DNA of 62,402 nucleotides. Origin: a virus. Taxonomy: Duplodnaviria > Heunggongvirae > Uroviricota > Caudoviricetes. Shown one piece after another: positions 19,923 to 52,336 of the stretch; position 1 is the first letter of the stretch; the number at the start of each line of letters is the position of its first letter. The notes under the pieces were generated by a model that saw only the letters and a list, made by a program, of their open reading frames with translations, had not been told where the DNA came from and ran no database searches. A program made the translations under genes and the position numbers. The DNA is taken from IMG/VR virus record IMGVR_UViG_3300029219_000144; one strand, given 5' to 3'.

Positions 19923-19979
19923 CCTGCTTCCGTATATATAAATAATAAGTAACTTATTAAATATATATACGGAAGCAGG
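19923..19979. repeat. 57-bp near-perfect palindromic element (copy 1), CCTGCTTCCGTATATATA..TATATATACGGAAGCAGG
   Basis: 18-bp arms around an AT-rich palindromic core containing ATAAGTAACTTAT; second copy at 52280-52336. Confidence 0.65.
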
Positions 19980-20015
19980 CTTAGTAAGACATGCCAGACC
20001 TAATTAAACACCCCA

Positions 20016-20057
20016 GAAAACAAGTTGGTTAGCAGATGCAGTAAACAAGTTGTTTTA
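20016..20057. promoter_or_regulatory. Two adjacent operator-family palindromes (GAAAACAAGTTGGTT and TAAACAAGTTGTTTTA) upstream of terS
   Basis: Tandem copies about 45 nt before the ATG at 20096. Confidence 0.5.
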
Positions 20058-20095
20058 GAGCGCATGGACGCGCTCTGTGTGTTTTAGAGGGATCT

Positions 20096-20728
20096 ATGAC
20101 GGTCGAAAAAGACGAGGTAAAAACTCGCCTGACACCAGCGGAGTGGGCCGAAGCTGAAGCCAAATGGACGTCAGGCGAATATACACTCTCAAAGCTGGAG
20201 GAAGAGTACGGCATTCGTCGTGAAACACTCTCCAGACATTTCAAAAAGCGAGGATTAGAGAAAGGCGCGGACTCTGTTGGGAAGATGGTTCGTGAGTCTC
20301 TTAAATCTGACGCAGAGCTTCGCGCTAAAGCCCGTGCGGAAAAGATAGAAGAACGTCGTACACGTTATGACGGCTGGGCGTATGCGTTGGGGCAGATGGT
20401 GATGGTCGAAGTCACTACGGCCAAACGTGAGGGTAAGCCTTTAGGGGCGATTGAGGATTCTCTCAAGAGCTTACAGAGAGCCAGTAATACCCTTGCAAAA
20501 TGCTTTGAAGTTTCGTCCAAAGCATTGGGCATGGATCATGCGGAAAATGACGAGGAAGAAATTCCGAACCTGGTATTTGGTGAGCTTACGCCTTCCCAGG
20601 TGGCGAAATTACGTCAGGAAGACGACGAGCCTGAAATCATCGATGACGAATTGCTTGAGACGTTGGAAGAAGAAGCTCTAAGCGAATTTGATGCGACAGA
20701 TGATGGAATTGAAGGGGAGGACGAATAA
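20096..20728 (+). CDS. Terminase small subunit (predicted)
   Basis: 210-aa protein with an HTH-like N-terminus, acidic C-terminus, immediately upstream of terL. Confidence 0.55.
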   Translation: MTVEKDEVKTRLTPAEWAEAEAKWTSGEYTLSKLEEEYGIRRETLSRHFKKRGLEKGADSVGKMVRESLKSDAELRAKARAEKIEERRTRYDGWAYALGQMVMVEVTTAKREGKPLGAIEDSLKSLQRASNTLAKCFEVSSKALGMDHAENDEEEIPNLVFGELTPSQVAKLRQEDDEPEIIDDELLETLEEEALSEFDATDDGIEGEDE

Positions 20729-21984
20729 TGGCAATCCCGTCCTCGCTCAGTCTTGTGCAACTGCATTCTGGACAGATGAAAGTCTTCCAGTCTCCGCATC
20801 GATTTAAAGTTGTTTGTGCTGGTCGACGCTGGGGAAAATCCCGGTTGTCGATCTCCACTATTATTCGTGCGGCGGCAAAGGAAAAAAAGCAAAGAGTCTG
20901 GTATGTCGCTCCTACTTACCAGATGGCTCGCCAGATTTTGTGGGACGATCTACAGGAAGTTCTGCCTCGTAAGTGGGTTAGGAAAAAGAACGACACCACG
21001 ATGACAATCGTGTTGAAGAACGGTTCGGAGATCGCCCTCAAAGGTGCTGATAAGCCTGACACTCTGCGCGGCGTAGCGTTGCATTTTGTAGTGCTTGATG
21101 AATTTCAGGATATGAAGGCTGACACCTGGTACAAGGTGTTACGACCTACTCTTTCATCGACACGCGGCGGTGCACTGATCATTGGTACGCCAAAAGGCTT
21201 CTCGGAATTTCACAAACTGTGGACTATAGGCCAGAACGTAGAGCTGCAAAGAAAGGGACAGTGGAAGAGCTGGCAGTTTGTAACTGCCGATTCTCCGTTT
21301 GTACCTACGGCGGAAATTGAAGCTGCTAAGAACGATATGGACCCGAAATCGTTCGCTCAGGAGTACCTGGCGAGCTTTGAGAACATGTCCGGGCGCGTTT
21401 ACTACCCGTTCGATCGTAACGTGCATGTAAAACCGCTTCAGTTCAACCCTCGGTTGCCTATATGGGTAGGGCAGGACTTCAACATTGACCCGATGTCTTC
21501 AGTAATTTTGCAACCTCAGCCAAATGGTGAGCTATGGGCAATTGATGAATTGGTGCTCTTTTCCTCTAACACGGCAGAGGTTTGTGATGAGCTTGAGAGA
21601 CGCTTCTGGCGCTGGAAATCACAGATAACGGTATTTCCAGATCCGGCAGGTGCTTATCGCCAACATGCTCGCGGGGAGTCTGACGTCGACATATTCAAAG
21701 AGAAGGGATTCTTACGTGTCGATTATTCGAAAAAGCACCCGCCAATTGCGGATCGTGTTAATGCTGTTAACCGAATGCTGATGACCGCATCTGGAGATAT
21801 CCGGCTGTATATCGATCCGAAGTGCAAGCATTTGATTGATTCACTGGAAAAAGTCATCTACAAGCCTGGAACACGAGATATGGATAAGACAGGTGGCATT
21901 GAGCATAGTGCAGACGCATTGGGCTATCCAGTACATCGTAGGTATCCAGTCAAAAACCGTGTTATTCTTGGTGGTTCTCGATAG
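20728..21984 (+). CDS. Terminase large subunit
   Basis: Walker A-like CAGRRWGKS, Walker B VVLDEF, C-terminal nuclease-like region; followed by the portal gene. Confidence 0.75.
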   Translation: MAIPSSLSLVQLHSGQMKVFQSPHRFKVVCAGRRWGKSRLSISTIIRAAAKEKKQRVWYVAPTYQMARQILWDDLQEVLPRKWVRKKNDTTMTIVLKNGSEIALKGADKPDTLRGVALHFVVLDEFQDMKADTWYKVLRPTLSSTRGGALIIGTPKGFSEFHKLWTIGQNVELQRKGQWKSWQFVTADSPFVPTAEIEAAKNDMDPKSFAQEYLASFENMSGRVYYPFDRNVHVKPLQFNPRLPIWVGQDFNIDPMSSVILQPQPNGELWAIDELVLFSSNTAEVCDELERRFWRWKSQITVFPDPAGAYRQHARGESDVDIFKEKGFLRVDYSKKHPPIADRVNAVNRMLMTASGDIRLYIDPKCKHLIDSLEKVIYKPGTRDMDKTGGIEHSADALGYPVHRRYPVKNRVILGGSR

Positions 21985-22010
21985 GTAAGTAATTATCTAA
22001 GGTTATTCAA

Positions 22011-23585
22011 ATGGAATTGAACGACAAACAAATTAAGGATCTGGTGGCGCGACGCCACCCGGAATACGAAAAGAAAAAAGAACATTGGGACTTCCTCGCC
22101 AGCACTTACGCTGGCGGGCGTGGTTGGTTTACAGACAATATCTTTCGTTACTTTAAAGAGGGAGATCAGGAGTTTAAGGAGCGAGTTGAACGTGCTTATC
22201 GCTTCAACCACACTCGTGAGGTGGTAAACCTCATCAACAAATATCTCTTTAAAGAAGACATTCATAGAAATATCGAAGAGGCACCAGAGCAGATCCGCAA
22301 TTTCTGGAAACGTGCGACTCGCCAGAATGCCTCTATTGACTCATTTATGGCCGCTATTGATTTGCAGTCGTCTATTTACGGTCGCATATGGGTTGTTGTC
22401 GATAGCACGATGAGTGGTGATGTTGAGTCAGTAGCTGACGAGAAAAAGAAAGATGCTCGCGCCTACGCCTACTGGATTTCACCTCAGCAAATGCTGGATG
22501 TGGCATGGGACGACGACGGGAATATGTTGTGGGCGTTAATTGTGGAAGTCGCTCGTGATGACGCAGATCCTTTTACTTCTACAGGTCAGGAATACCAACG
22601 TTATCGTCTGTGGACACAAAACGAGTGGTATCTGTTCCGTGAGGAAGTGAAGAAGGGCGCTGGTGGAGCAGGTCGCCGTCAGGCAAAAGTTATTTTAGAG
22701 GATAGCGGTGAGCATAATCTCGGCGTAGTTCCTGTGTTTCCTGTTGATTGTATTGGAGAAAGTGAATCACCGTATTTCAGCCCATCGTTGATCGATGATA
22801 TCGCTTATCTTGATCGTGCGGTTGCAAACTATCTGTCAAACCTTGATGCCATTATTCAGGATCAGACATTTAGCCAGTTGGCTATACCGGTACAGTCGCT
22901 TTTACCTGGTGATGAAAACCACACTAAAGTGCTTGAAATGGGCACAAAGCGAGTCTTCACCTACGATTCTGAAGGTGGAAACCAGCCGTTTTATCTGTCA
23001 CCAGACCCGAAACAAGCTCAGATGATCATCACTACGATTAAGACGGTGATTAACGAAATCTACCATTCAGTTGGTGTAGCTGGTGAGCGAACGAAGCAGG
23101 ACAACGCACAGGGAATCGATAATTCATCTGGTGCCGCAAAAATGTATGACTTCCAGCGTGTAAATAGCTTGCTTGTCACAAAAGCAGAGCGTCTGGAAAG
23201 GGCTGAACGCCAAATCATGCTACTGGTTGCGAAATGGATGGGGGTAGATCTGGACGAAGATCACTCTTTAATTGCGTATCCAGAAAGTTTCGATATTCGT
23301 GGCCTTACTGATGAATTTTCTGTTGCCGAGAAACTGTCATTACTTCAGGCACCGGACTCTGTACGTCGTCACCAGATGGAAATGCTTATTGAGAAGATTT
23401 TCCCGAACATTACTGAGGCGATGAAAAAGGAATTTGATAAAGATCTCTTGAATTTTCCTCCAAAAAATGATCTAAATACCCTTGAAAATAAGTCGGTACT
23501 TACTTATGATCGTGGTGCAGCCCAAGAAAGCGGGCAAGATCAACCCCGAGGGAATGGGGACTCATCTACTCAAGAGAACGAGTGA
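22011..23585 (+). CDS. Portal protein
   Basis: 524-aa ORF directly after terL and before the scaffold and capsid genes. Confidence 0.7.
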   Translation: MELNDKQIKDLVARRHPEYEKKKEHWDFLASTYAGGRGWFTDNIFRYFKEGDQEFKERVERAYRFNHTREVVNLINKYLFKEDIHRNIEEAPEQIRNFWKRATRQNASIDSFMAAIDLQSSIYGRIWVVVDSTMSGDVESVADEKKKDARAYAYWISPQQMLDVAWDDDGNMLWALIVEVARDDADPFTSTGQEYQRYRLWTQNEWYLFREEVKKGAGGAGRRQAKVILEDSGEHNLGVVPVFPVDCIGESESPYFSPSLIDDIAYLDRAVANYLSNLDAIIQDQTFSQLAIPVQSLLPGDENHTKVLEMGTKRVFTYDSEGGNQPFYLSPDPKQAQMIITTIKTVINEIYHSVGVAGERTKQDNAQGIDNSSGAAKMYDFQRVNSLLVTKAERLERAERQIMLLVAKWMGVDLDEDHSLIAYPESFDIRGLTDEFSVAEKLSLLQAPDSVRRHQMEMLIEKIFPNITEAMKKEFDKDLLNFPPKNDLNTLENKSVLTYDRGAAQESGQDQPRGNGDSSTQENE

Positions 23586-23606
23586 TAAGTAACAAAAGGA
23601 ATTTTT

Positions 23607-24494
23607 ATGAATCTGTGGCAAATGCTTTTGGCCCGTCGTGGTCTGATGGATGTCGCTGAAGCGCATGAGCGTGGAGGCGCTGGCGGTGTAGCTGCTGATA
23701 ATGAGCAGAGTACACAAGATCCTGACAAACAGGGTGAACAAAAAGAGCAGCCGAAGGGCGATGACGAATACGCTGGCATGACTCAGGAAGAGTTACTGGC
23801 CGAACTTCGTAAAACCAAGAAAGCTGGTGCTGAACTGCTGAAGGAGAACATGAAGCGCAAAGAGAAAGAGCGCACATTGGCCGATCAGCTTGCTCAGTAC
23901 GGTGATATCGATCCGGCTCGTGCTCGCCAGCTTTTAGAAGCTGAACAGGCCGCAGAAAACGCACGTCGTGAGGCGGAGCAAGCTGAACTGGAGCGTCGTG
24001 GTGAGTTCGATGCTGTTAAAAAACAGATGATCGAAGCACACCAGGCAGAGCTGGCACAGCGTGACGAACGTTATGCAGCACTGGAAAGTGAAAACGCATC
24101 ACTGAAATCTCAATTAGTCGAGATGACCGTGGGCGCTTCCTTCAGTAACTCTCTCTTCCTACGTGACAAAGTTCTGATGACCCCGGCAAAAGCCCGCGTG
24201 ATCTACGGTTCTCATTTTGAAGTGGGTGAAGACGGTAGCGTAGTGGGTTATGACAAACCGGCAGGTCACAAAGAACGAGCTGTTCTGGTTGACGGTGAAG
24301 GTAAGCCGTTGCCGTTTGAATCCGCGATTGAACGCATTGTGCGGGCAGATCCGGAAGCTGACGCATTGATGCGTAGCGAAGCCAAGCAGGGTGTAGGCTC
24401 ACATTCCAAATCGACCTACACAATATCCCAACCGAAGAACAAGTCGACTATGGATAAGTTGGCCTCCGGTCTGGGGAAAATTGGACTTAAGTAA
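23607..24494 (+). CDS. Scaffolding protein
   Basis: Charged, coiled-coil-rich 295-aa protein between portal and capsid genes. Confidence 0.6.
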   Translation: MNLWQMLLARRGLMDVAEAHERGGAGGVAADNEQSTQDPDKQGEQKEQPKGDDEYAGMTQEELLAELRKTKKAGAELLKENMKRKEKERTLADQLAQYGDIDPARARQLLEAEQAAENARREAEQAELERRGEFDAVKKQMIEAHQAELAQRDERYAALESENASLKSQLVEMTVGASFSNSLFLRDKVLMTPAKARVIYGSHFEVGEDGSVVGYDKPAGHKERAVLVDGEGKPLPFESAIERIVRADPEADALMRSEAKQGVGSHSKSTYTISQPKNKSTMDKLASGLGKIGLK

Positions 24495-30525: not shown

Positions 30526-33500
30526 ATGTCACAAAACGTAGAGTTTATCCTGTCGCTGGAAGACAAACAGTTTACAGCGTCAATCGATCGTGCGGGGAAA
30601 CTGCTTACTCGATTTGGTGAGCAGGTAACAAAGCCTGCTCAAAAAATCCAAGCCTTTGAACGCTCTTTGGGTTCGGTCGCCCGTATCATTGGCGTTCTGG
30701 AAAGCAAGCTCGATTCTACGGCAGATAAACTACAGGATGTAGCTGCCGGTTTTGAGCTTGCTTCAGATGCTACGCGTAAAATGCGTGGCAACATCACCAG
30801 CCTCAATTCTGGTCTTAAAGCCCTGATTGAGCGCGTCGATACGACAACTTCTTCAGTAGATAAACTCACCGCGTCATTACGTAAAGTGCAATCAGAGCTA
30901 AATGATTTCTCTGATTGGGCGACCTATGCAAGCAAAAGCGCAAGCCGCTTTGGTACGGAGGTCAAAGAAGCCTCTGCGTCCGTGAGTGGCATGAATACGC
31001 GCCTTAATACCACGACGAAGCGACTCAGTAATTGGGGTGTCACAACGAGTCAGGCTGCCGAGGGACTGAAAAAGGTTCGTGAGCAGATGGACGAAGTTAT
31101 CGGACGTCAGCAACTGATTAGCAAGCCGGTACGCGTTCGTACATCTGGAAGTGGCGATGGTGGTAGCGGGCGGCGTAGCGGCGCTTCTGGCCATAGCGGT
31201 AAAAGTAACGAAGGAGGTATGTTCTCTGGCCTTCGTGGCAACATTTTCCTGCTTGGCGAGATCGGAGATGCAGCCAGAACGGTTACTGACATCATGTTTG
31301 GGTGGCAGAAGCCTATTGTTGAAGCTGCGGCCGAAATGGAACGTATGCGGGTGATGCTTCGAGGGTTGAATAAGGAGAAGTCCAACCCGGGCCAGGCTGC
31401 CGCTGATGATATGAAGTACATCGTAGACATGGCGCAAAATGCGCCGTTCGCGATGCAGGCGTTAACAGATTCCTTCGTGAAGTTTCGTTCTGCTGGCTTA
31501 GATCCAACCGATGGTTCTCTGAAGGCGCTGGTGGACTCCGTTGCTCGTTTTGGTGGTGATAGTGAGCTGTTGAAACGTGCGGCTGTGGCCGTTCAGCAGA
31601 TGTCCGGTAAGGGCGTTGTGTCAATGGAAGAGCTACGTCAGCAATTAGGTGAAGCCGTTCCTAACGCGATGCAGGCAATGGCAGACGCCGCAGGCATCAC
31701 TATGGGGGAACTGACTAAAGCCGTTGCCAGCGGTACGGTTGAGGCAAAACAGGCGTTGTCTCTGATGTTTGTTGGTCTGCGTGCGGAGAATGAGAACGCA
31801 GCGAAAGACATGATGCAAACCTACACAGGTGCGCTGGCGCAACTTCAGACGTCATTCACGTTATTTGCTGATCGGGTTGGTCAGGCCGGATATCTGGATT
31901 CTCTATCGAAGGGGATGAAAGAACTGGCTTCAATCATGAATAGCGCCGAAGGAATTTCGTTTGCCAATTCTTTAGGCTCGGGGTTAACGACGGCAATCGA
32001 TGGGTTGCGTCAGCTTGCTCAATGGTTAGTAAAGAACCAAGAGCTGGTAATTAATCTCGGTAAGGTCGTGGCCGCGATGGTTGCGTTCAAACTGATGCGA
32101 GCAGGGATCATGGGGGTAGTTGGCGCAGGCAGCCAGATGGTTAGCACCTTTGCCACGATGGCGACCGCCATACAGACTCCATTTAACCTCGGCGCTACAG
32201 CAGTAACCCGATTCAATCGTGCGGCACGTATGGGGCTGGCTCCGATCCCCTCTCTTATTTTCGCCATCCGTGGGGCGATTACGGGGCTTAAAGGCGCTTT
32301 TGCTGGATTAACGGCGTTCATTGCAGCAAACCCTATAGGGGCAGCATTTACAGTTGCCACTGTAGCTGTTGCTGGCCTAATCACGTACATGACCATGCTC
32401 CGCAGCGAAACTTCAAAGGTCGTTGACGAGATTAGGAAAATACCAGAGGCGATGACGGCGGCCAAACGTGCACAAATGGCCGACCGCGCAGAAAAGCTCG
32501 AAAAGCAGATTCTTGCTGATCAACGAGCATTAAAAACTGGTGAGGGTGTTAATTACGTATCTAACTCTGCCGGTGTTATCACTCACAAAGAGTCGAAGGC
32601 TGACATCGAAGCACGCCTGAAAAAAAATCAGGAAGAGTATCAAAAGATAACCGGCACGATAGCTCTTGGTGACGGCGCTGTAGCAAAGCGTTTGGCTAAA
32701 GAGGCTGCCGAATCTCAGATTGAGAAAATTCGAGCGGAAAACCAGATTTTCGCGGCAACATTCGTGAAAGCCCGGCAGGAGGCTCTGGACAAGATCCAGA
32801 AAATCAATGATGACGGTTCACTTTCAGATGACGAAAAGAACAAGCTATTGGCACCGTTACGTGAAACGGTAAACAAAAGCTATCTGGAGCCTGCGCAAAA
32901 ACTGGTTGATTCACTTTCTTCTCGTAAGAATGCCACCGAGAAGCAAATAGCGACTCTTAATGATCAGCTTGAAAAAGCCAAAAAGGATGGAAATACCGAG
33001 CAAATCCAGAAACTGCAAGGCAGTATCCGTGGTTATCAGGAGCATTTGGAAGCCGTTGCTCAGGAGCTGACTCAGGCAGAGTTCGAGAGAGATAACGCGG
33101 CCAAAACTGGTAAGGGCGTAATGTCAAACCAGGGGACTGTTCTTGGGTTAGGTACAACTGATAAAGCCGCTCAGAAGGCGCTGGCGCAATATATGCGAAA
33201 CCAGATGGATTCTGCGACTTATCAACGTACTTTGCCTGACGGCACTCCGATGATGGACTTCGAAGGTAAGCCGATTATTGGGCCTAAACAACTCAAGACG
33301 CAGCTTAATTTGCAGAAAGCATCCAGCGCCAGCTCTCTGGAGAAAATGAGCGATGAAGAGCGTGCCGCAGCCATTGCTGCACTAACTAAAGCTCGTGAAC
33401 AGGATGCAGCAGCTGCCGAGAAAGCAGCCCAACGATCAGCTAACGCCTCGCAGCGTGCGGCCAAGAAGGAACAGGCAGCGCAACAGAAACTGGCAGCCGG

Positions 33501-42458: not shown

Positions 42459-45400
42459 ATGTGGTACAGGGAAGGTACTATCACATTTACACAGGGCAGC
42501 AATACTCTGGTTGGGGCAGGGACAGCCTGGAACGTAACAGCTAATGGTGTGTTGCCGGGGATGATCGTCATTGGCCCCGACAATAAGCTGTATGAGATCA
42601 AGCGCGTAACCAGTGATACGAACATTGTTCTCTCAGAACCTTATACCGGCGAAACTCAGTCTGAAGTTCCGTGCCGAATCATTACGACCTATGAAGGCGA
42701 CTTAACACAGTTTAGCGCGCGCTTTACAGCACTAATGTCGCGTATGTCGGCTGATTCCAAGTCCATGCGCAGTTGGTTGACTGCTCTGGATGAGGTGACA
42801 ATCGAGCGTGAAGACGGTACAGAAGTGACCGTTAAGCCGCTAATGCAGATCGTCAACGAGCACAACGAAAACGTTGAGTGGTATAAAAATAACACTGACG
42901 CGATTGATGCTGCTGGCGACAAAGCTCGTGAGGCGGCGGCCAGTGCTGCCGCAGCAGCAGAAAGCGCCAATATCGCTGGAGAAAAAGCCTCTCAAGCGTC
43001 TCAAAGTGCATCCGCTGCAGAGTCCTCAAAAAGCGCGGCGGCCACCAGTGCCGGTGCCGCGAAAACGTCTGAAACGAATGCTGCAGCGTCACAAAAATCT
43101 GCAGCCACTTCTGCATCCACCGCGACCACGAAGGCGTCAGAAGCTGCCACCTCAGCCCGGGATGCGGCGGCCTCAAAAGAGGCAGCGAAATCATCAGAAA
43201 CGAGCGCAGCCTCGAGCGCCAGTAATGCCGCTTCCTCGGCAACGGCGGCAGGAAATTCCGCGAAGGCGGCAAAAACGTCCGAGACGAACGCCAGGTCTTC
43301 TGAAACGGCAGCGGGACAGAGCGCCTCGGCTGCGGCAGGCTCAAAAACAGCGGCTGCGTCGTCTGCCAGTGCCGCGTCAACAAGTGCCGGGCAGGCCTCA
43401 GCCAGTGCCACCGCCGCCGGAAAATCGGCAGAAAGTGCCGCATCGTCTGCTTCAACAGCCACAACGAAGGCTGGCGAAGCCACTGAACAGGCCAGCGCAG
43501 CAGCGAGGTCTGCTTCCGCAGCGAAGACATCCGAAACGAACGCGAAAGCGTCGGAAACCCGTGCAGAATCCTCAAAAACGGCAGCCGCATCGTCCGCCAG
43601 TTCGGCAGCGTCATCGGCATCATCTGCGTCTGCTTCAAAAGATGAGGCGACCAGACAGGCGTCAGCAGCGAAGGGCAGCGCCACGACGGCATCCACGAAA
43701 GCAACAGAGGCGGCAGGCAGTGCGACGGCAGCATCTCAGAGCAAAACTGCTGCTGAATCCGCTGCGACCCGTGCGGAAGCTGCTGCTGATCGTGCTGAAG
43801 AGATTGCCGGTGCAGTTGCGATGGAAGACGCAAGCCTTACAACTAAAGGTGTTGTGAAACTTAGCAGTGCTGTCGACAGCACCAGTGAATCGCTGGCCGC
43901 AACGCCAAAAGCAGTTAAAGTAGTCAATGACAATGCGAACAGCAGGGTGCCATCTAACCGAAAAATTAACGGGAAAGCACTGACTGCGGATATCACATTA
44001 ACGCCGAAAGATATTGGTACTTTAAATTCAATAACGATGTCTTTCTCTGGCGGGGCCGGGTGGTTCAAACTGGCTACTGTTACAATGCCACAAGCGAGTT
44101 CCATCGTTTACATCGCATTGATTGGTGGCGCTGGTTACAACGTCGGCTCCCCACATCAGGCAGGCATTTCAGAACTGGTTCTACGAGCAGGCAATGGAAA
44201 CCCCAAAGGGATTACAGGTGCTTTGTGGAAGCGTACAGCTGTCGGATTAACGAATTTCGCCTGGATCAACACATCCGGCGATACATATGATATTTACGTT
44301 GAGATTGGCAATTATGCGACTCGTGTAAATATCCATTGGGATTGTACTGCAAATGCGACAGTTTCTATTTATACATCGCCAACATATTCAGCTAGTAAGC
44401 CTTCCAGCGTTACCGATGGTGTTGTTTATACGATGTATAGCACACATCAGAAACCGACGCCGTTAGATATTGGAGCACTGCCAACAACCGGAGGAACAGT
44501 TTCAGGTCCGTTGTCTGTTACTGGTGGGATCACCGGAACATTAAATGGTAATGCAAGTACAGCAACGAAATTGCAGACGGCAAGATCTATCGGTGGAGTT
44601 GGTTTCGACGGTTCTGCAAATATCAACCTTCCAGGTGTAAATACTACGGGTAATCAGAACACCACTGGTAATGCTGCAACTGCTACAAAACTTCAGACGG
44701 CAAGAACTATCGGCGGCGTGAGCTTTGATGGTACTGCGAATATTAATTTGCCAGGTGTTAATACGACTGGTAATCAGAATACAACGGGCAACGCGGCTAC
44801 TGCTACGAAGTTGCAGACTGCGCGTACTATCAATGGGGTGTCGTTTGACGGCTCGGCAAATATTTCCTTGTCGCCAGCAAATATAGGTTGCCCGGCATCT
44901 CCTACTGGTTGGTTAACTACAGGAAGTAATGGCGGAGCAATAACAACAGCACAGTTAGTGACGTTATTGCAAAATAATGGAGCATTTAACACAAAGTCAT
45001 GGATTGCTCGATGTGCTTGGGCCTATGCCAATAGTGCAACCATACCAAATAGTGAAACTGGTTGTGGCGTTATTCCATTGGCAGGAGCTGTTATAGAGGT
45101 ATTTAATAACGGTAGTAGCTCAAACAATTATACGATCCGTATAACAACGGCCACAACGACGAGTGTCTCTGGTGCTCTCACTAATGCGGAGTTTATCTAT
45201 GTATTTAATGGCACAGATTATTCTCCGGGATGGCGAAGAGTATATAACACGAAAAACAAACCAACAGCCTCTGATGTCGGTGCATTACCTCTTACCGGTG
45301 GTACATTATCTGGAGGTTTGACATCTTCTGGCGAGATCATTTCAAAATATGCAAATGGTTTCCGCATTGCTTACGGTAGCTTTGGGTTCTTTATCCGTAA

Positions 45401-46616
45401 TGATGGATCGAACACATATTTCATGCTAACAGCATCAGGAGACACATTAGGTTCATGGAACGGTTTGCGACCAATTACAATTAATAATACCAGCGGTGCT
45501 GTATCAATTGGTAATGGACTAAATGTGACTGGTGGCGTAAATGGTAGTTTGAACGGTAATGCTTCAACAGCTACGAAGTTGCAAACAGCGAGAAACATCA
45601 ATGGTGTTAAGTTTGATGGCTCAGGCGATATCAACATTAATACATTGGTATCTCGTGGCCGAGTTACGGCGTTAAGCGGCTCTACTCAAGGCACTGCTGG
45701 CATTCAAATGTACGAGGCGTACAACAATAGCTACCCGACCACGTATGGCAACGTATTGCACATGAAAGGTGCGAGTGCTGCTGGTGAGGGCGAGTTGCTT
45801 ATTGGCTGGAGTGGTACGAGCGGTGCACATGCGCCAGTTTTCATTCGCTCACGAAGAGATACCACAGATGCGGCATGGTCAGCGTGGGCGCAGGTATATA
45901 CTGCTAAGGATTCAATCCCTGGTGTGAATACAACCGGTAATCAGAATACTACTGGTAATGCCGCAACAGCCACAAAATTGCAGACAGCAAGGAAAATTGC
46001 TGGTGTGGCGTTTGATGGCTCTGCCGATATTACTTTGACTGCGGCTAACCTTAATGCTTATACGAAAACAGAGGTAACAAACCTTCTAAGTTCCTATGCA
46101 AGCAGATCATCACTGACAGGCTATAGTGGCAACCTGGATATTATTGCTGAAACACTGGTTGTCAAATCAGGCGGTAGTGGAGGGTTTGCTATATGGGATA
46201 TTGGCACAACTACTAGCGGTGCCAATATGTACATTGATCCAAACCCTGGTATCAATACAGTTTGGCGTTCAACATCTTCAAGGCGCTATAAAAAGGATAT
46301 TGAAACATTACAAGATCGATATGCTGATGAACTTTTGTCATTAAGACCTGTTTGGTATCGTTCAATTTGTCGAGGTGACCGAAAGGATTGGGGGTATTAC
46401 GGCCTTATTGCTGAAGAGGTTGGTGAGATTGCCCCGCAATATGTCCATTGGCGTGAACCAACAAATAATGATTCTCCAGAAGATATTTCCTCAAATGGTA
46501 TGGTCGCTGAAGGGGTGATGTATGAGCGTTTGGTTGTACCACTCATTCATCATATTCAGCAATTGACCAAAAGGGTTGAGGAGCTTGAAACGAAGTTAAA
46601 TTCACCTAAAGAATAA
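42459..46616 (+). CDS. Side tail fibre (lambda Stf-like shaft, repeat region, C-terminal intramolecular chaperone domain)
   Basis: Ala/Ser-rich region (AESSKSAAATSAGAAKTSETNAAASQ...) near-identical to lambda Stf as recalled; GNAATATKLQTAR repeats; C-terminus has S74-like chaperone motifs (YGLIAEEV..). Confidence 0.8.
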   Translation: MWYREGTITFTQGSNTLVGAGTAWNVTANGVLPGMIVIGPDNKLYEIKRVTSDTNIVLSEPYTGETQSEVPCRIITTYEGDLTQFSARFTALMSRMSADSKSMRSWLTALDEVTIEREDGTEVTVKPLMQIVNEHNENVEWYKNNTDAIDAAGDKAREAAASAAAAAESANIAGEKASQASQSASAAESSKSAAATSAGAAKTSETNAAASQKSAATSASTATTKASEAATSARDAAASKEAAKSSETSAASSASNAASSATAAGNSAKAAKTSETNARSSETAAGQSASAAAGSKTAAASSASAASTSAGQASASATAAGKSAESAASSASTATTKAGEATEQASAAARSASAAKTSETNAKASETRAESSKTAAASSASSAASSASSASASKDEATRQASAAKGSATTASTKATEAAGSATAASQSKTAAESAATRAEAAADRAEEIAGAVAMEDASLTTKGVVKLSSAVDSTSESLAATPKAVKVVNDNANSRVPSNRKINGKALTADITLTPKDIGTLNSITMSFSGGAGWFKLATVTMPQASSIVYIALIGGAGYNVGSPHQAGISELVLRAGNGNPKGITGALWKRTAVGLTNFAWINTSGDTYDIYVEIGNYATRVNIHWDCTANATVSIYTSPTYSASKPSSVTDGVVYTMYSTHQKPTPLDIGALPTTGGTVSGPLSVTGGITGTLNGNASTATKLQTARSIGGVGFDGSANINLPGVNTTGNQNTTGNAATATKLQTARTIGGVSFDGTANINLPGVNTTGNQNTTGNAATATKLQTARTINGVSFDGSANISLSPANIGCPASPTGWLTTGSNGGAITTAQLVTLLQNNGAFNTKSWIARCAWAYANSATIPNSETGCGVIPLAGAVIEVFNNGSSSNNYTIRITTATTTSVSGALTNAEFIYVFNGTDYSPGWRRVYNTKNKPTASDVGALPLTGGTLSGGLTSSGEIISKYANGFRIAYGSFGFFIRNDGSNTYFMLTASGDTLGSWNGLRPITINNTSGAVSIGNGLNVTGGVNGSLNGNASTATKLQTARNINGVKFDGSGDININTLVSRGRVTALSGSTQGTAGIQMYEAYNNSYPTTYGNVLHMKGASAAGEGELLIGWSGTSGAHAPVFIRSRRDTTDAAWSAWAQVYTAKDSIPGVNTTGNQNTTGNAATATKLQTARKIAGVAFDGSADITLTAANLNAYTKTEVTNLLSSYASRSSLTGYSGNLDIIAETLVVKSGGSGGFAIWDIGTTTSGANMYIDPNPGINTVWRSTSSRRYKKDIETLQDRYADELLSLRPVWYRSICRGDRKDWGYYGLIAEEVGEIAPQYVHWREPTNNDSPEDISSNGMVAEGVMYERLVVPLIHHIQQLTKRVEELETKLNSPKE
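44540..44880 (+). repeat. Three tandem ~120-bp in-frame repeats inside the fibre gene (further diverged copies near 45540 and 45900)
   Basis: Repeated NINLPGVNTTGNQNTTGNAATATKLQTAR.IGGV.FDG with synonymous differences. Confidence 0.6.
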
Positions 46617-47546: not shown

Positions 47547-47780
47547 ATGATGAAAAGATTATTTCTAACAATAGCTGTTGTTCTCTCTCTTACTGGCTGC
47601 CAGAAATTGCCGACACCTATATGTTACGGTGAGGCTATCATTGGTGGACAGGAGACAGTCATACCCATATATGCTGTTAAAAAAGTGAACGACTATACCT
47701 TATACAAAGCGGGTAGCATCTATAACTGGCGATGGGTAGGAGTAGGTGCTTTCTCATCAGTCCGTTGCAATGTTGAATGA
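47547..47780 (+). CDS. small lipoprotein (77 aa), possible superinfection-exclusion type
   Basis: Signal peptide with lipobox LTGC (MMKRLFLTIAVVLSLTGCQ); sits between tail fibre and lysis genes. Confidence 0.5.
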   Translation: MMKRLFLTIAVVLSLTGCQKLPTPICYGEAIIGGQETVIPIYAVKKVNDYTLYKAGSIYNWRWVGVGAFSSVRCNVE

Positions 47781-47861
47781 TAAGTAAGTACACACCTACA
47801 ACAAGAAGGTGAAATGTGATATAAATCCGCCATCCCGATTTGACTTTTCATGGAGGAAAAC

Positions 47862-48185: not shown

Positions 48186-48198
48186 CAGGAGATCAAGG

Positions 48199-48891: not shown

Positions 48892-48892
48892 T

Positions 48893-49144: not shown

Positions 49145-49280
49145 ACCACAAACAGCCAGCGTGTTGTTCTGCGATGGGGCTGAGCCTATCTATATCAGCA
49201 ATAATGATGTAATGACTGAAGAAACCGAACGCCAAATCCTTTTTCACAATACGATGGGAGAGAGGGTTTGTGGTTGGTGA
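49065..49280 (+). CDS. o-spanin (Rz1-like outer-membrane lipoprotein)
   Basis: Lipoprotein signal MRRAVKYVRKMLLPFIVSCMISGC with lipobox ISGC; overlaps the i-spanin 3' end out of frame. Confidence 0.55.
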   Translation: MRRAVKYVRKMLLPFIVSCMISGCVIKPQTASVLFCDGAEPIYISNNDVMTEETERQILFHNTMGERVCGW

Positions 49281-49287
49281 TGTCGAA

Positions 49288-49309
49288 GTTCCCCTCAAAT
49301 GAGGGGAAC
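49288..49309. terminator. Bidirectional hairpin between convergent lysis and toxin-antitoxin genes
   Basis: GTTCCCCTC aaat GAGGGGAAC, 9-bp stem. Confidence 0.6.
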
Positions 49310-49312
49310 ACA

Positions 49313-49834: not shown

Positions 49835-49841
49835 GAGTAAA

Positions 49842-50111
49842 CTACTCCATGCTTTTCAGACGATCAGCAGCTCGTTTCAGCTTGTCGTTCGGTGCCGGAG
49901 GATTGCTTATAGCGTCCATAACCAGATTCCAGGATTCTTCATTCAGAACTAGTCTACGGTGTTGCTCTATAACTTTCACGGCACGTTCAGATGCACTGCT
50001 AACCATAAACTGAGTAATGCTCTGGTTAGACATTGCGGCAGCTTCCTCGATGATGCTTTTATCGTCATCGGTTAATCTCAAATCGATGCGCTGCTTTTTT
50101 AGTGCTGACAT
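49842..50111 (-). CDS. DUF1778-family antitoxin (TacA/KacA-like)
   Basis: 89-aa protein from MSALKKQRIDLRLTDDDKSIIEEAA, RBS AGGAGG 5 nt upstream; ORF-track start 50150 is an upstream extension. Confidence 0.65.
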   Translation of the reverse strand: MSALKKQRIDLRLTDDDKSIIEEAAAMSNQSITQFMVSSASERAVKVIEQHRRLVLNEESWNLVMDAISNPPAPNDKLKRAADRLKSME

Positions 50112-50379
50112 GTATTCCTCCTGATGGCCGTGATGTAGGAAGGCCATCAATCTCCTCTGTTCAAACTGAGTTTTCGACTCAAAAATTACTTTAAAAGGCT
50201 ATAGCCCATTACGTGTGCATTATCAAATTGTGTACGGCATATCACCGTACTTGTAATATAGAGGTCATTGTTACTTTTTTCAACAGACAAATACAAGCTA
50301 TGATTGCCAATTGTTAATCACAACCTACCATTTAACCTTTACACCGCAGCCGTAGGCATTTAGGCTATATCACATATAA

Positions 50380-50394
50380 GAAAACAAGTTGTTT
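50380..50394. promoter_or_regulatory. Palindrome GAAAACAAGTTGTTT (operator family) upstream of parA
   Basis: 35 nt before the ATG at 50430. Confidence 0.5.
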
Positions 50395-50429
50395 CAGACG
50401 ATAATTATATACGCAAAGGGAACTCTCCA

Positions 50430-51098
50430 ATGACCAAGATCTTTGTGGTTGGCGGCACAAAGGGCGGGCCTGGCAAATCCACCGTTGCCCAGCAAATTGC
50501 CGTTTGCCTGAAAGTCAAAAAGAAGAAGAAGGTTTATATTACCGATATAGATATTCAGCGCACGACAACGAGCTGGTGTGAAGACCGTCGACAGAACGAA
50601 GACCTTGAGCTGATTCCTTTTGCATACGTTCAGGATGACATCATTAAGCACCTAAAATCGCTTCAGGGTAGAGCTGAGTTTGTAGTGGTAGATGCTGGTG
50701 GCTTCGACTCCGAAATTCAGCGACAAGCGATGCTGATGGCTGACGTTATCATTATCCCGCTGCGTCCTAAGCGTCGTGATTTGAAATCTTTACGTGACAT
50801 CGATCCTATTATCGACAATGTTCGCAATGTAAACGATAAAGTGAAGGTCCGCGCGGTCATGAACCAGTGCCCGGCTTTGCCATCACAAGTGTCTCGCATT
50901 CTGGCGGCTAAAGAGATTGTCGAGACGTTTGGCATCGAGTCTGCGCCAGTCAATCTATATAACCGCAACGTCTACGATGATGCGGAAGAGTCTGGTCGTT
51001 CTATCTTCGAAATGACCGGTAGCGAGCGCGACAAAAAGGCGGAAGCCGAGTTTGAAGAATTTGTAGATTATCTGTTGAGTCTGGAGGAAGAAGAATAA
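50430..51098 (+). CDS. ParA/ParF-type partition ATPase (small, type Ib-like)
   Basis: Deviant Walker A GGTKGGPGKST in a 222-aa protein. Confidence 0.75.
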   Translation: MTKIFVVGGTKGGPGKSTVAQQIAVCLKVKKKKKVYITDIDIQRTTTSWCEDRRQNEDLELIPFAYVQDDIIKHLKSLQGRAEFVVVDAGGFDSEIQRQAMLMADVIIIPLRPKRRDLKSLRDIDPIIDNVRNVNDKVKVRAVMNQCPALPSQVSRILAAKEIVETFGIESAPVNLYNRNVYDDAEESGRSIFEMTGSERDKKAEAEFEEFVDYLLSLEEEE

Positions 51099-51457
51099 TG
51101 TCCATGAAAATGGGTGACCTAGCAAAGCGCAAAGAGCCTGATGCACCGGCTAAGAACACAACTCCTTTGCGCCAACCAGTCAGACCACAGGGACGCCCGA
51201 CTCGTGGCAAAGAGAAAATTAAAAGCCGCACAATGTCACTGGAAGACGAATACTTCGAACTGCTGGAGATGATGAAGTTCATCCCTCGCTTCGAGAAATT
51301 CACCCGTTCTGACGTGATTCGCGCAGCCATTTTCCATCTGGCAGAGAAGTCACCGCAGGAAATCGAGGACATCGTGAAACTTAACGAGGCAATCACAGCT
51401 GCCGATGTCACGATGCGTACCGATGAAATTAAACGAGAGTTGATGAAGAAAGGTTGA
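51098..51457 (+). CDS. small partition partner protein (ParG/RHH-like, 119 aa)
   Basis: Start overlaps the parA stop; basic N-terminal tail and helix-rich C-terminus. Confidence 0.5.
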   Translation: MSMKMGDLAKRKEPDAPAKNTTPLRQPVRPQGRPTRGKEKIKSRTMSLEDEYFELLEMMKFIPRFEKFTRSDVIRAAIFHLAEKSPQEIEDIVKLNEAITAADVTMRTDEIKRELMKKG

Positions 51458-51501
51458 TAAGAGAAGGCGTGATTAGACGCCTTCTCTTAAAAGGTATATT
51501 T

Positions 51502-52257
51502 ATGCTTTACAAATATGTTGGAAGTAGCGTCCCGGAAGACACAATAAAGTATTTAAAGTATTACTTAGAAGATGGGAAAATTCGAGCAACTCGTCCGAAT
51601 GATTTCAACGATCCTGCCGAGTTTAAAGTTAATTTTGATTATGATGCTGATATAGACGCCATTAAGAAAAGATTTTTTGAGCTTTGGCCTAATCATCACA
51701 ATGATGAATTTGAACGCTGGTTATTGAGTCAAACAGAACATAGTCGCAGTTTTGATAACTATATGATTAGAACAACTTTTCTGCAGTGTCGGGGAGTTAT
51801 TTGTTTGACAAAAAGACCAGATAATTATCTTATGTGGTCGCATTATGCGCATTCTCACTCTGGTTTTTGCATCGGATTTGATGATGGTTTTATAAATGCG
51901 TTTGATGATGGTTTTTTTGTTCGCGGTGAGGTCAAATATTCCTCTGATGTTCCGGTTGTAAATTTTTTTACCGACTCAGATAAAGAGATTGCAGCGGCTC
52001 TTTGCCTAAATAAAAGCGATGTCTGGGAATATGAAGAGGAGGTTAGAATCGTAACCGAGAATTGTGGCGTGAAATTATTTGATAAATCCTTAATTAAGGA
52101 AATAACAATAGGTTGTAAGGCTAGCAGTCAACTTCAAAATTATGTTCATCAACTATTTGATTCAGGTATCGAAATCTACAAAATGAAGTGCCCTCCAGGA
52201 TCGTATAAGCTGGAAAAAATAAGATTAGAGAAAGATACTGATTTTCTTGGATACTAG
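51502..52257 (+). CDS. DUF2971-like protein (252 aa from MLYKY; alternative start 51454)
   Basis: N-terminal LYKY, RPNDFNDPAEF and later SHYAHSHSGFCIGF motifs resemble the DUF2971 family as recalled; AT-rich gene. Confidence 0.5.
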   Translation: MLYKYVGSSVPEDTIKYLKYYLEDGKIRATRPNDFNDPAEFKVNFDYDADIDAIKKRFFELWPNHHNDEFERWLLSQTEHSRSFDNYMIRTTFLQCRGVICLTKRPDNYLMWSHYAHSHSGFCIGFDDGFINAFDDGFFVRGEVKYSSDVPVVNFFTDSDKEIAAALCLNKSDVWEYEEEVRIVTENCGVKLFDKSLIKEITIGCKASSQLQNYVHQLFDSGIEIYKMKCPPGSYKLEKIRLEKDTDFLGY

Positions 52258-52279
52258 TATTGGTAGTATCAACAATTAT

Positions 52280-52336
52280 GACCTGCTTCTGTATATAATA
52301 AGTAAATTAGTATTTATATATATACAGAAGCAGGTC
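52280..52336. repeat. 57-bp palindromic element (copy 2), GACCTGCTTCTGTATATA..TATATACAGAAGCAGGTC, followed by TTTT
   Basis: Arms nearly identical to copy 1 at 19923-19979; core contains TAATAAGTAAATTAGTA. Confidence 0.65.

What the first reader, a model, noticed from the sequence alone, without database searches (positions are those of the whole stretch)
19923..52336. Two copies of a ~57-bp palindromic element bracketing the structural-lysis-maintenance region
Elements at 19923-19979 and 52280-52336 share 18-bp arms (CCTGCTTC(C/T)GTATATA) around an AT-rich palindromic core. Copy 1 sits just before terS and copy 2 just after the DUF2971-like gene. They could be bidirectional terminators, but the identical arm sequence at two sites ~32 kb apart also fits recombination or packaging-related sites.
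Basis: seen in the sequence. Interest (0 to 1): 0.5.

Follow-up and report, generated by a model that had tools for sequence, protein, structure and literature searches.

The report
Repeated hairpin terminators at phage-plasmid module borders
The two palindromes are real and belong to a conserved three-copy family in SSU5-like phage-plasmids that most likely stops transcription at the borders between the packaging/structural, replication and regulatory gene blocks, which is useful for annotation but not a new kind of biology.

Summary
Copy 1 (19923-19979) and copy 2 (52280-52336) share the 16-nt arm CCTGCTTCYGTATATA and part of the AT-rich core. They are the strongest hairpins in the window. 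The window is an E. coli SSU5-like phage-plasmid. Complete relatives, including SSU5 itself, carry a third copy outside the window. All three lie between co-oriented genes, at the borders of the late/lysis/partition, replication and regulatory blocks, and are conserved in E. coli, Salmonella, Klebsiella, Kluyvera and Yersinia pMT1 relatives.

The best reading is that these are long intrinsic terminators or insulators.
- A T-tract follows copies 2 and 3 in nearly all lineages.
- Published RNA-seq of phage Cyrano, whose copy 2 is identical, shows expression falling from 55-89 to 6 across it.
- In a distant lineage where the hairpin has decayed, an unrelated canonical terminator sits right beside it.

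Copy 1 has no T-tract, so its role is less clear. Copy 2 is also the right edge of a variable cargo slot that here holds the DUF2971 gene.

I found no evidence for inversion between copies, for packaging ends, for an origin or for a centromere. A second role for the more conserved right half, as a promoter or operator, cannot be excluded. Interest is modest.

The parts
19923..19979 (.). Copy 1 of the palindromic element. Arms are CCTGCTTCCGTATATA / TATATACGGAAGCAGG around an AT-rich, self-complementary core. It lies between the stop of an 88-aa gene (19898) and terS (20096). No T-tract follows it.
   Evidence: Searches give sequence and folds. Searches show conservation in about 75 relatives. 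One search gives the downstream flank CTTAGTAAG, with 3 T in 9.
52280..52336 (+). Copy 2 of the palindromic element, with 18-nt perfect arms GACCTGCTTCTGTATATA / TATATACAGAAGCAGGTC. It is the predicted terminator of the parA / 119-aa / DUF2971 transcription unit.
   Evidence: One search shows conservation in about 78 relatives. One search shows the identical sequence in Cyrano, where expression drops from 54.6 (CYRAN_30) to 6.2 (CYRAN_31).
52337..52345 (+). T-rich tail (TTTTAAAGA, preceded by the TC that closes the stem) directly after copy 2. It would be the U-tract of the terminator.
   Evidence: One search gives the sequence. One search shows TCTTTT conserved after copy 2 in nearly all lineages although the sequence beyond it differs.
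50430..51457 (+). Partition operon upstream of copy 2: a ParA-like ATPase (50430-51098) and a 119-aa protein read here as ribbon-helix-helix-like (51098-51457). In relatives without cargo the palindrome follows this operon directly.
   Evidence: One search gives the ParA/MipZ Pfam hits and a weak aCcr1-type hit. In one search, loci L081, L102, L106 and L156 run from 51460 straight into the palindrome. One search shows the operon is expressed in the Cyrano lysogen.
51454..52257 (+). DUF2971 gene. It is variable cargo occupying the slot between the partition operon and copy 2.
   Evidence: One search identifies PF11185. In one search only 21 of 259 E. coli plasmid records cover at least 80% of 51400-53300. 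In one search homology to most relatives stops at about 51455 and resumes at 52272-52281, the left edge of the palindrome.
20056..20087 (+). A second, canonical terminator-like hairpin (GAGCGCATGGACGCGCTC followed by TGTGTGTTTT) between copy 1 and the terS start. It may provide the termination or attenuation that copy 1 cannot.
   Evidence: One search finds it in the terminator scan. One search shows it conserved in all relatives with compensatory stem changes (GAGCAC...GTGCTC).

Best explanation
The two elements belong to a three-copy family of homologous long stem-loops that punctuate the circular, almost entirely co-oriented genome of SSU5-like phage-plasmids. One copy sits at each border between three blocks: (I) packaging, structural, lysis and partition genes; (II) replication and nucleotide-metabolism genes; (III) regulatory and accessory genes.

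When a + strand transcript runs through an element, the GC-rich arm bases (CCUGCUUC/GAAGCAGG) close an 18-28 bp hairpin. In copies 2 and 3 a U-tract follows immediately, so RNA polymerase terminates without a protein factor. In the lysogen this keeps transcription of the partition/cargo operon out of the silent replication block. Copy 1 has no U-tract. It is probably a weaker barrier or an RNA 3'-end hairpin that works together with the canonical hairpin and T-run 80 nt downstream, just before terS.

Because the copies are about 55 bp long and nearly identical, they are also occasional substrates for gene conversion. Copy 2 forms the fixed right edge of a slot where cargo genes are swapped.

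What is shown: the existence, conservation and positions of the elements, the T-tracts, the cargo boundary, and the drop in expression across copy 2. What is inferred: that the hairpin itself causes termination, and the role of copy 1.
For: 1. The hairpins are strong and non-random.
2. There are three copies at equivalent intergenic sites in E. coli plasmid NZ_CP070074.1 (record 3713-3767, 58400-58452, 89970-90024) and in SSU5 (record junction, 33458-33513, 78304-78360). Each lies between co-oriented genes at a border between functional blocks.
3. All three are conserved across about 70-80 IMG/VR relatives each, and copy 1 also in Y. pestis pMT1 and Kluyvera.
4. The T-tract after copies 2 and 3 is kept in nearly every lineage although the surrounding flanks differ, for example TCTTTTAAAAGA, TCTTTTTCTATG, CTGTTTTGTATC and CTTTTTAAGACG.
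5. The Cyrano RNA-seq gene table gives parA 49.8, CYRAN_29 89.1 and CYRAN_30 54.6, then CYRAN_31 6.2 against a background of 9.8. In condition B6 the log2(FPKM+5) values are 10.4 and 2.6. Cyrano's intergenic region, including copy 2, is almost base-for-base that of the window (one difference upstream of the palindrome; copy 2 itself and everything from it to the next start codon are identical) and the scan found no other terminator-like site there.
6. In a distant lineage the copy 2 and copy 3 analogues have lost the left arm and no longer fold (z +0.4 to +0.9). Each is followed within 15-40 nt by an unrelated canonical hairpin with a T-run. That hairpin is better conserved than the remnant, which suggests the function was replaced.
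7. Non-Watson-Crick arm positions are mostly G.U-compatible on the + strand: 49 cells, against 15 compatible only on the - strand and 14 other mismatches.
8. The window holds another repeated terminator-like hairpin (12007 and 12503), so repeated hairpins of this kind are not unusual here.
Against: Copy 1 is conserved as well as the others but has no T-tract in the E. coli, Salmonella or Klebsiella lineages. Expression on both sides of copies 1 and 3 is at background in the only dataset, so termination there is untested.

The stems are 18-28 bp with AU-rich upper parts, which is not typical of intrinsic terminators, and the simple terminator scan does not call them.

Arm position 9 varies independently on the two arms (C-G 20, T-G 31, T-A 10, C-A 11), and the right arm is more conserved than the left. 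The arm sequence is kept in all three paralogues although their cores differ. In the distant lineage the same variant right arm recurs at all three sites. These points hint at recognition of the sequence itself and not only of the structure.

The RNA-seq data are gene-level. They cannot separate termination from processing followed by decay, and they do not map the 3' end to the hairpin.
Confidence: 0.52

Rival explanations
1. Composite terminator plus promoter/operator cassette. The hairpin stops incoming transcription. The AT-rich core and the right arm form a promoter or operator recognised by a phage-specific factor that switches on the three downstream lytic blocks together. A transcript starting there would contain only the right arm and so would not terminate itself.
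For: The right arm is more conserved than the left. The right half survives without the left arm in a distant lineage, and the same variant arm (TATAGGAGCCAGGC) sits at all three sites of one genome. Copies 2 and 3 each lie about 105-115 nt upstream of the next start codon, with copy 1 at a similar distance from terS. The genes just downstream are silent in the lysogen, as lytic promoters would be. The layout resembles PeSL cassettes. For copy 1 the order element, short leader, terminator hairpin, late genes recalls the lambda pR'/tR' design (established knowledge).
Against: No sigma-70-like promoter is found at or next to any copy. Within the distant lineage the remnant right half varies more than the neighbouring terminator, as expected for a decaying relic. 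Gene conversion is seen directly in contig 2880329822, and copies 1 and 2 are identical in three other genomes. That can explain shared variants without any trans-acting factor. A different motif (AAACAANTTGTTT, preceded by a -35-like hexamer) looks like the real promoter/operator signal of this genome. No candidate factor was identified.
Confidence: 0.17
2. RNA processing or stability signals. The long, nearly perfect double-stranded stems are RNase III-type cleavage sites or protective 3' hairpins. They would separate and differentially stabilise segments of long polycistronic transcripts, as between the early genes of T7.
For: The stems are 18-28 bp, long enough for RNase III and longer than usual terminators. 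The sites are intergenic and lie between co-transcribable blocks. Copy 1 has no U-tract but is still conserved. The gene-level drop in RNA-seq is equally consistent with cleavage followed by decay.
Against: The conserved T-tracts after copies 2 and 3 are not needed for processing. In the distant lineage the replacement is a short canonical terminator, not another long duplex. No data exist on cleavage.
Confidence: 0.1
3. Dispersed protein-binding sites on DNA. These could be centromere-like sites for the partition system, or for the two ParB-family proteins encoded just upstream of copy 1. The model is the dispersed SopB sites of N15-type phage-plasmids.
For: Copy 2 lies directly after the par operon when cargo is absent, the classic position of P1 parS and F sopC. 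Two ParB-family genes sit 2-3 kb upstream of copy 1. There are several identical sites per replicon. Dispersed SopB-type sites on three phage genomes are reported in PMC3177203. Half-sites vary independently at position 9.
Against: The par system here pairs a small ParA with a small protein that looks ribbon-helix-helix-like. Centromeres of such systems are normally short repeat arrays upstream of parA (established knowledge). The spacing between arm cores varies from 29 to 37 bp, mostly through TA slippage, which would rotate the half-sites on B-DNA. The T-tracts and the expression drop are explained by termination alone. All candidate binding proteins are 86-98% identical between E. coli and SSU5, so no co-variation test was possible.
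Confidence: 0.07
4. Origins or unwinding elements for lytic replication. GC clamps flank an easily melted (TA)n core, and copy 2 lies next to the helicase/primase module, by analogy with the palindromic herpesvirus oriS.
For: The core is AT-rich with (TA)n. Cruciform potential is strong. Copy 2 is immediately upstream of the 249-aa, DnaB-like helicase and primase genes. There are several copies per genome.
Against: There is no change in GC skew at either copy. No iterons or DnaA boxes were noticed around the elements. The 249-aa protein has no recognisable origin-binding domain. In the distant lineage cargo separates the copy 2 analogue from the replication genes, and the analogue stays with the par operon. 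The palindrome decays there without loss of the replication module.
Confidence: 0.05
5. Copy 1 is part of the packaging signal (cos or pac) recognised by terminase.
For: It lies about 115 bp upstream of terS. It has the dyad symmetry seen in cosN-type sites. The SSU5 and Cyrano records are both opened inside it, with record position 1 corresponding to about window 19962-19963.
Against: Joining the SSU5 record ends rebuilds the complete 55-bp element with no loss or duplication, as for an arbitrarily opened circle. Cyrano probably copied SSU5's start point, which is my inference. Contigs of other assemblies break at copies 2 and 3 as well (L093, L097, L347), as expected for a 55-bp repeat. Three near-identical sites per genome would give sub-genomic cuts. 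No paper reporting SSU5 termini was found.
Confidence: 0.04
6. Target sites of a site-specific recombinase, for multimer resolution or for inversion or deletion of the 32-kb segment.
For: The arms are inverted repeats with a loose resemblance to loxP arms (CTTCGTATA against CTTCCGTATA, from memory). A tyrosine recombinase gene exists elsewhere on a relative.
Against: The arms are 21-35 bp apart, not 6-8 bp. That recombinase sits in a fimbrial cargo island and not in the core genome. The three marker loci keep the same relative orientation in all 16-20 genomes that could be checked.
Confidence: 0.03

Closest known systems
Intrinsic (Rho-independent) transcription terminators
   Same: A GC-rich stem base is followed directly by a T/U-tract in copies 2 and 3. 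The position is at the 3' end of a transcription unit. Transcript level drops sharply across copy 2.
   Different: The stems are much longer (18-28 bp) with an AU-rich, partly paired upper part. Three copies share the same arm sequence across genera. Copy 1 has no U-tract.
PeSL cassettes of T4-type phages (composite promoter-early stem-loop elements; PMC2839356, PMC4122927)
   Same: Both are repeated, conserved intergenic stem-loops that terminate upstream transcription. Both sit next to variable genes and can act as points of exchange.
   Different: PeSLs carry a strong sigma-70 consensus promoter and occur in dozens of copies inside hyperplastic regions. Here no sigma-70 promoter is detectable. 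There are only three copies, at fixed positions, and only copy 2 borders a variable slot.
Dispersed centromere (SopB-binding) inverted repeats of N15-type phage-plasmids
   Same: Both involve a phage-plasmid with several copies of one inverted repeat scattered through phage gene blocks.
   Different: The N15 sites are short 16-bp SopB boxes used by a large ParA/HTH-ParB (type Ia) system (from memory; dispersal on phage genomes is noted in PMC3177203). Here the arms are separated by a long AT-rich spacer of variable length. The par system appears to be of the small ParA type with a ribbon-helix-helix-like partner. Termination explains the data.
REP/BIME-type intergenic palindromic repeats of enterobacterial chromosomes
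   Same: Both are repeated imperfect palindromes at the 3' ends of genes that form RNA hairpins and can stabilise or end transcripts (established knowledge).
   Different: REP elements have different sequences, hundreds of copies and chromosomal locations. The present family is specific to SSU5-like elements and has three fixed sites.

Membership tests
Intrinsic terminator | Stable GC-rich stem-loop in the transcript | tested here: met
   On the + strand the RNA minimum free energy is -46.4 kcal/mol (copy 1) and -36.6 kcal/mol (copy 2), with z-scores of -10.7 and -8.8.
Intrinsic terminator | U-rich tract immediately 3' of the stem | tested here: inconclusive
   The feature is met for copy 2 (TCTTTT) and copy 3 (CTGTTTT or CTTTTT) in nearly all lineages. 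It is not met for copy 1 (CTTAGTAAG, CTCTCAAAC or TTCTGAAT).
Intrinsic terminator | Transcript abundance falls across the site | tested here: met
   This was tested for copy 2 only. In Cyrano, which has the identical sequence, expression goes from 54.6 to 6.2, and in condition B6 from log2 10.4 to 2.6. Copies 1 and 3 are uninformative because both sides are at background.
Intrinsic terminator | Typical geometry: a 5-14 bp stem with a 3-8 nt loop | tested here: not met
   The stems are 18-28 bp, and the consensus scan does not call them.
PeSL-type promoter/terminator cassette | Sigma-70 consensus early promoter joined to the stem-loop | tested here: not met
   There is no promoter-like site at or beside either copy, or beside Cyrano copy 2.
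PeSL-type promoter/terminator cassette | Copies flank variable genes and mark indel boundaries | tested here: inconclusive
   Copy 2 marks the right edge of the cargo slot exactly. Synteny runs through copy 1 in all relatives, and through copy 3 in most of them.
Dispersed centromere of a phage-plasmid (N15 type) | A partition system with a sequence-specific centromere-binding protein whose known site type matches the repeat | tested here: not met
   The partner of ParA is a 119-aa protein read here as ribbon-helix-helix-like. The repeat is not a compact 16-bp box, and its spacer length varies from 29 to 37 bp. Binding itself cannot be tested with these tools.
cos/pac packaging site | A single site per genome next to the terminase genes | tested here: not met
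   Copy 1 is next to terS, but two more near-identical copies exist.
cos/pac packaging site | Virion DNA ends map to the site | not testable with these tools
   The only hint is that two GenBank records are opened inside copy 1. No read data are available and no published termini were found.
Tyrosine-recombinase core site (lox/dif type) | 11-13 bp inverted arms around a 6-8 bp spacer, with a cognate recombinase | tested here: not met
   The arms are 21 bp or more apart. There is no recombinase in the core genome.
Tyrosine-recombinase core site (lox/dif type) | Rearrangements (inversion or deletion) between copies among relatives | tested here: not met
   The terS, 249-aa and methyltransferase loci have the same orientation in every contig that holds two or three of them.
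Replication origin | An initiator gene or initiator binding sites beside an AT-rich unwinding element, with a skew change | tested here: not met
   An AT-rich core is present. There is no skew change. The adjacent protein has no recognisable initiator domain. RepA lies elsewhere.
Any Rfam RNA family | A match at the gathering score | tested here: not met
   Only a tRNA passes the threshold in the window. The palindromes give only sub-threshold hits to generic eukaryotic miRNA-precursor hairpins.

The most novel reading that the evidence does not exclude
The three elements are not passive terminators but a small regulon of dual-purpose switches. Each hairpin would block read-through in the lysogen. 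Its conserved right half would be recognised, as DNA or as nascent RNA, by a phage-encoded factor that opens all three lytic blocks together after induction, either by antitermination or by promoter activation. The same sites, or their cruciforms, would drive exchange of cargo genes. This would be a genome-wide punctuation-and-switch system peculiar to SSU5-like phage-plasmids.
Probability: 0.15. Interest if true: 0.6.

Novelty: new member of a known kind. Interest (0 to 1): 0.3.

Why it matters
SSU5-like phage-plasmids are common in clinical E. coli, Klebsiella, Salmonella and Yersinia and carry resistance and toxin-antitoxin cargo. Their regulation is almost unstudied.

Knowing that three conserved hairpins mark the borders of the transcription blocks gives annotators clear landmarks. 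It explains why the partition and cargo genes can be expressed in the lysogen without turning on the phage replication genes. It also shows where cargo is swapped: the slot ending at copy 2. Finally, it explains why short-read assemblies of these plasmids tend to break at these points. If the right half proves to have its own regulatory role, these would be the first regulatory sites defined for this family.

Tried and rejected
- A scan of one genome per species for the 16-nt right arm gave mostly chance single hits. Paired arms (a complete element) were confirmed in Kluyvera, Y. pestis pMT1 and two contigs of a MAG labelled Bacillota (probably mis-binned enterobacterial DNA). This used the only genome-contig scan for little gain.
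- Exact-arm scans for the variant palindromes of two distant relatives found only the copy already known.
- Full-text searches found nothing on SSU5 cos sites, termini, palindromes or centromeres. One 2026 preprint could not be opened.
- Pfam, PHROG and NCBIfam scans of the neighbouring small proteins (88 aa, 119 aa, 249 aa, terS) gave no function that would name a binding protein.
- A co-variation test between arms and candidate binding proteins was not possible. All candidates are 86-98% identical wherever the arms are the same.
- I considered host LexA binding, because CTGTATATA...TATATACAG resembles a stretched SOS box. I rejected it because the half-sites are about 30 bp apart and position 9 is often C, giving CCGT.
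- I considered a miniature mobile element. I rejected it because there are no target-site duplications and the positions are fixed in all relatives.
- I looked for concerted evolution as proof of a trans-acting factor. Within-genome paralogue identity (0.888) is no higher than between-genome orthologue identity (0.910). Homogenisation is therefore sporadic and does not call for a trans-acting factor.

Full report
**What the window is.** Region 19000-24000 is 99-100% identical to many E. coli plasmids and to phages CMS-2020a and Cyrano. It is about 80% identical to Salmonella phage SSU5 and to Klebsiella phage-plasmids, and 765 PLSDB plasmids match it. The window is therefore part of an SSU5-like phage-plasmid. 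Plasmid NZ_CP070074.1 (115,209 bp) is collinear with it on the opposite strand, with window position x corresponding to record position 110734 - x.

**Checking the observation.**
- Copy 1 (19923-19979) has 28-nt arms, 93% complementary, with 1 nt between them. Copy 2 (52280-52336) has perfect 18-nt arms with 21 nt between them. They rank first and third among all inverted repeats in the window.
- The shared arm is the 16-mer CCTGCTTCYGTATATA. It occurs nowhere else in the window. With up to 3 mismatches there are 5 hits against 0.40 expected.
- The similarity includes the core, ATAATAAGTAA(C/A)TTA. The local alignment score is 63, against 20.9 +/- 2.4 for shuffles.
- Both fold far better than shuffled sequence, as RNA (z -10.7 and -8.8 on the + strand) and as DNA (z -11.0 and -8.9).
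- Copy 1 lies between an 88-aa gene and terS/terL. Copy 2 lies between a DUF2971 gene and a 249-aa gene followed by a DnaB-like helicase and a primase.

**A third copy and a fixed layout.** The complete relative NZ_CP070074.1 has three copies: record 3713-3767, 58400-58452 and 89970-90024. SSU5 also has three: the junction of its record ends, 33458-33513 and 78304-78360. The third copy follows an N6-adenine methyltransferase gene and lies outside the window.

Nearly all genes run in one direction around the circle. The three copies sit in the gaps between (I) terS, head, tail, lysis and parA; (II) the 249-aa gene, helicase, primase, ligase, dnaE, repA, nrdAB and the methyltransferase; and (III) small regulatory and accessory genes ending with a ParB-ParB-ABC-ABC-88aa operon.

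Each copy is present at its site in about 70-80 IMG/VR relatives. Copy 1 is also present in Y. pestis pMT1 and Kluyvera plasmids.

**Evidence for transcription termination.** The flank just after the right arm is T-rich for copy 2 (TCTTTTAAAAGA, TCTTTTTCTATG, TCTTTTACGACC) and for copy 3 (CTGTTTTGTATC, CTTTTTAAGACG, CTTTTCCTTGTC). This holds in almost every lineage although the sequence beyond it differs. The upstream flank is not consistently A-rich. That is the signature of + strand intrinsic terminators.

The RNA-seq table published with the E. coli LF82 study (PMC9928086, supplementary file 2) lists every Cyrano gene.
- ParA is 49.8, CYRAN_29 (the 119-aa gene) 89.1 and CYRAN_30 (DUF2971) 54.6. 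CYRAN_31, the first gene after copy 2, is 6.2. The median background is 9.8.
- In condition B6 the log2(FPKM+5) values are 10.4 and 2.6.
- The Cyrano intergenic sequence is almost base-for-base that of the window. There is one difference upstream of the palindrome, and copy 2 itself plus everything from it to the next start codon is identical. The scan found no other terminator-like site there.

Transcription of the partition/cargo operon therefore ends in a 193-bp gap whose only strong structure is copy 2. For copies 1 and 3 both flanking genes are at background, so the dataset says nothing about them.

**A natural replacement experiment.** A more distant lineage has a methyltransferase 69-72% identical to the one next to copy 3 in the E. 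coli relative, and ParA, 249-aa and helicase proteins 68%, 53% and 69% identical to those of the window. There the copy 2 and copy 3 analogues keep only the AT-rich part and a variant right arm (TATAGGAGCCAGGC). They do not fold (z +0.4 to +0.9). Each is followed within 15-40 nt by an unrelated, canonical hairpin with a T-run. Within that lineage the new hairpin is almost invariant while the remnant arm drifts. The simplest reading is that termination is the selected function at these positions and that the old hairpin decays once something else supplies it.

**What does not fit a plain terminator.**
- Copy 1 is as well conserved as the others but has no T-tract in the E. coli, Salmonella or Klebsiella lineages. 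It does have one in the distant lineage.
- About 80 nt downstream of copy 1 there is a separate, conserved hairpin with compensatory stem changes and a T-run, just before the terS ribosome-binding site. This may do the terminating or attenuating there.
- The stems are unusually long.
- Arm position 9 varies freely and independently on the two arms (C-G 20, T-G 31, T-A 10, C-A 11 among 72 distinct variants). The right arm is more uniform than the left. A small set of arm variants recurs in different copies and on different arms.
- Non-Watson-Crick positions are mostly G.U-compatible on the + strand (49, against 15 compatible only on the - strand), but these counts are not phylogenetically independent.
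- The cores are specific to each copy while the arms are shared. Within-genome identity between paralogues (0.888) is no higher than between-genome identity of orthologues (0.910). Clear cases of homogenisation do exist: contigs in which copies 1 and 2 are identical, and one contig (2880329822) in which all three share a private core variant.

Slow evolution of a doubly constrained stem plus occasional gene conversion can explain all of this. A sequence-specific second function of the right half, as a promoter, an operator or an RNA-binding site, cannot be excluded.

**Recombination and cargo.** Homology between the window and most relatives stops at about 51455-51460, the end of the 119-aa gene, and resumes at 52272-52281, the left edge of copy 2. 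Some relatives have nothing in between and others have unrelated DNA. Only 21 of 259 E. coli plasmid records cover the DUF2971 region. In SSU5 three other genes fill the slot. In the distant lineage a - strand cargo gene lies just after the element. Copy 2 is therefore the fixed edge of a cargo slot.

Synteny runs through copy 1 in all relatives, and through copy 3 in most of them. In every IMG/VR contig that holds two or three of the marker loci, their orientations agree. There is therefore no sign of inversion between copies.

**Packaging.** The SSU5 and Cyrano records both start inside copy 1. Joining the SSU5 ends restores the full 55-bp element found in its relatives, with no duplicated or missing bases. 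Other assemblies break at copies 2 and 3 (L093, L097, L347), as expected for a 55-bp repeat. No paper reporting SSU5 termini was found. With three copies per genome a cos or pac role is unlikely, though it remains untested.

**Origin and centromere.** GC skew does not change at either copy. RepA is elsewhere. The 249-aa protein has no known domain. The partition system pairs a small ParA with a 119-aa protein that looks ribbon-helix-helix-like. The variable 29-37 bp spacing between arm cores does not suit a rigid dimer on duplex DNA. Dispersed SopB sites do exist on some phage genomes (PMC3177203), so the idea was worth testing, but nothing here requires it.

**Comparison with known systems.** The closest functional match is the ordinary intrinsic terminator. 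The closest architectural analogue is the PeSL cassette of T4-type phages, a repeated stem-loop terminator joined to a sigma-70 promoter that mediates gene shuffling (PMC2839356, PMC4122927). The defining promoter is not detectable here, so this is not a PeSL. No Rfam family matches. I found no published description of these elements.

**Verdict.** The terminator reading is supported for copy 2 by expression data and for copy 3 by sequence, and it is uncertain for copy 1. Site-specific recombination and packaging are not supported. This is a new, tidy example of a known kind of element, of modest interest. There is roughly a 15-20% chance that the conserved right half hides a regulatory role worth an experiment.

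Noticed in passing
Outside the window: NZ_CP070074.1 3713-3767 (L162); SSU5 78304-78360: There is a third copy of the palindrome about 27 bp after the stop codon of an N6-adenine methyltransferase gene and about 105 nt before a 76-aa gene. It is conserved in most relatives and is followed by a T-tract.
   Followed up: yes
window 6189, 6240, 7555, 8750, 9234, 10137, 10901, 20018, 20043, 50382, 53203: The 13-bp palindrome AAACAANTTGTTT occurs 11 times (0.47 expected). It lies 30-55 nt upstream of start codons (small early genes, terS twice, parA, helicase). It is often preceded by a -35-like TTTACA or TTAACA. It is probably the operator or promoter motif of a global phage regulator.
   Followed up: partly
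window 20056-20087: A conserved hairpin with a T-run lies immediately before the terS ribosome-binding site, with compensatory stem changes among relatives. It looks like an attenuator or terminator gating the late operon, as in Q-type antitermination designs.
   Followed up: partly
window 51454-52257: The DUF2971 gene is variable cargo. It is absent or replaced in most relatives, and SSU5 has three other genes there. In Cyrano it is co-expressed with parA in the lysogen.
   Followed up: yes
window 16707-19898: A five-gene operon (two ParB-family proteins, two ABC-type ATPase proteins and an 88-aa winged-helix-like protein) sits just upstream of copy 1. It is 86-99% conserved in SSU5, pMT1 and Kluyvera plasmids and is silent in the Cyrano lysogen. 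Its function is unknown.
   Followed up: no
JQ965645.1 and OV696614.1 record ends; IMG/VR loci L093, L097, L347: Two GenBank phage records are opened inside copy 1, and several assembled contigs end at copies 2 or 3. The 55-bp repeats are likely break points for short-read assemblies of these plasmids.
   Followed up: partly
window 16684-16706, 47780-47808, 52415-52437, 57922-57950: The motif ATAAGTAAGTA, which gives stop codons in all three frames, recurs just upstream of gene starts. A related string forms the centre of the palindromes.
   Followed up: no
window 12007-12037 and 12503-12533: A second repeated terminator-like hairpin (AAAGCGCCCATAGTGGGCGCT followed by a T-rich tail) occurs as two copies 496 bp apart.
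   Followed up: no
L398 3740-3900 (IMGVR_UViG_3300045988_137243): In a distant relative the copy 2 site reads as follows: AT-rich part, right arm, a bidirectional canonical terminator, a left-arm-like sequence (GCCTTGCTCCTATA), then a - strand gene for a 160-aa protein that looks secreted. The arrangement is inside-out, which suggests rearrangement at the element.
   Followed up: partly
window 44546-46072: Diverged repeats of about 120 nt (62-78% identity) lie inside the 1385-aa tail-fibre gene, three of them in tandem with further copies about 800-1,400 nt downstream.
   Followed up: no
window 61363-61434: This is a tRNA gene (Rfam, 75.5 bits). The annotated relative has a cluster of tRNA genes here, including one that PGAP labels tRNA-OTHER.
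   Followed up: no
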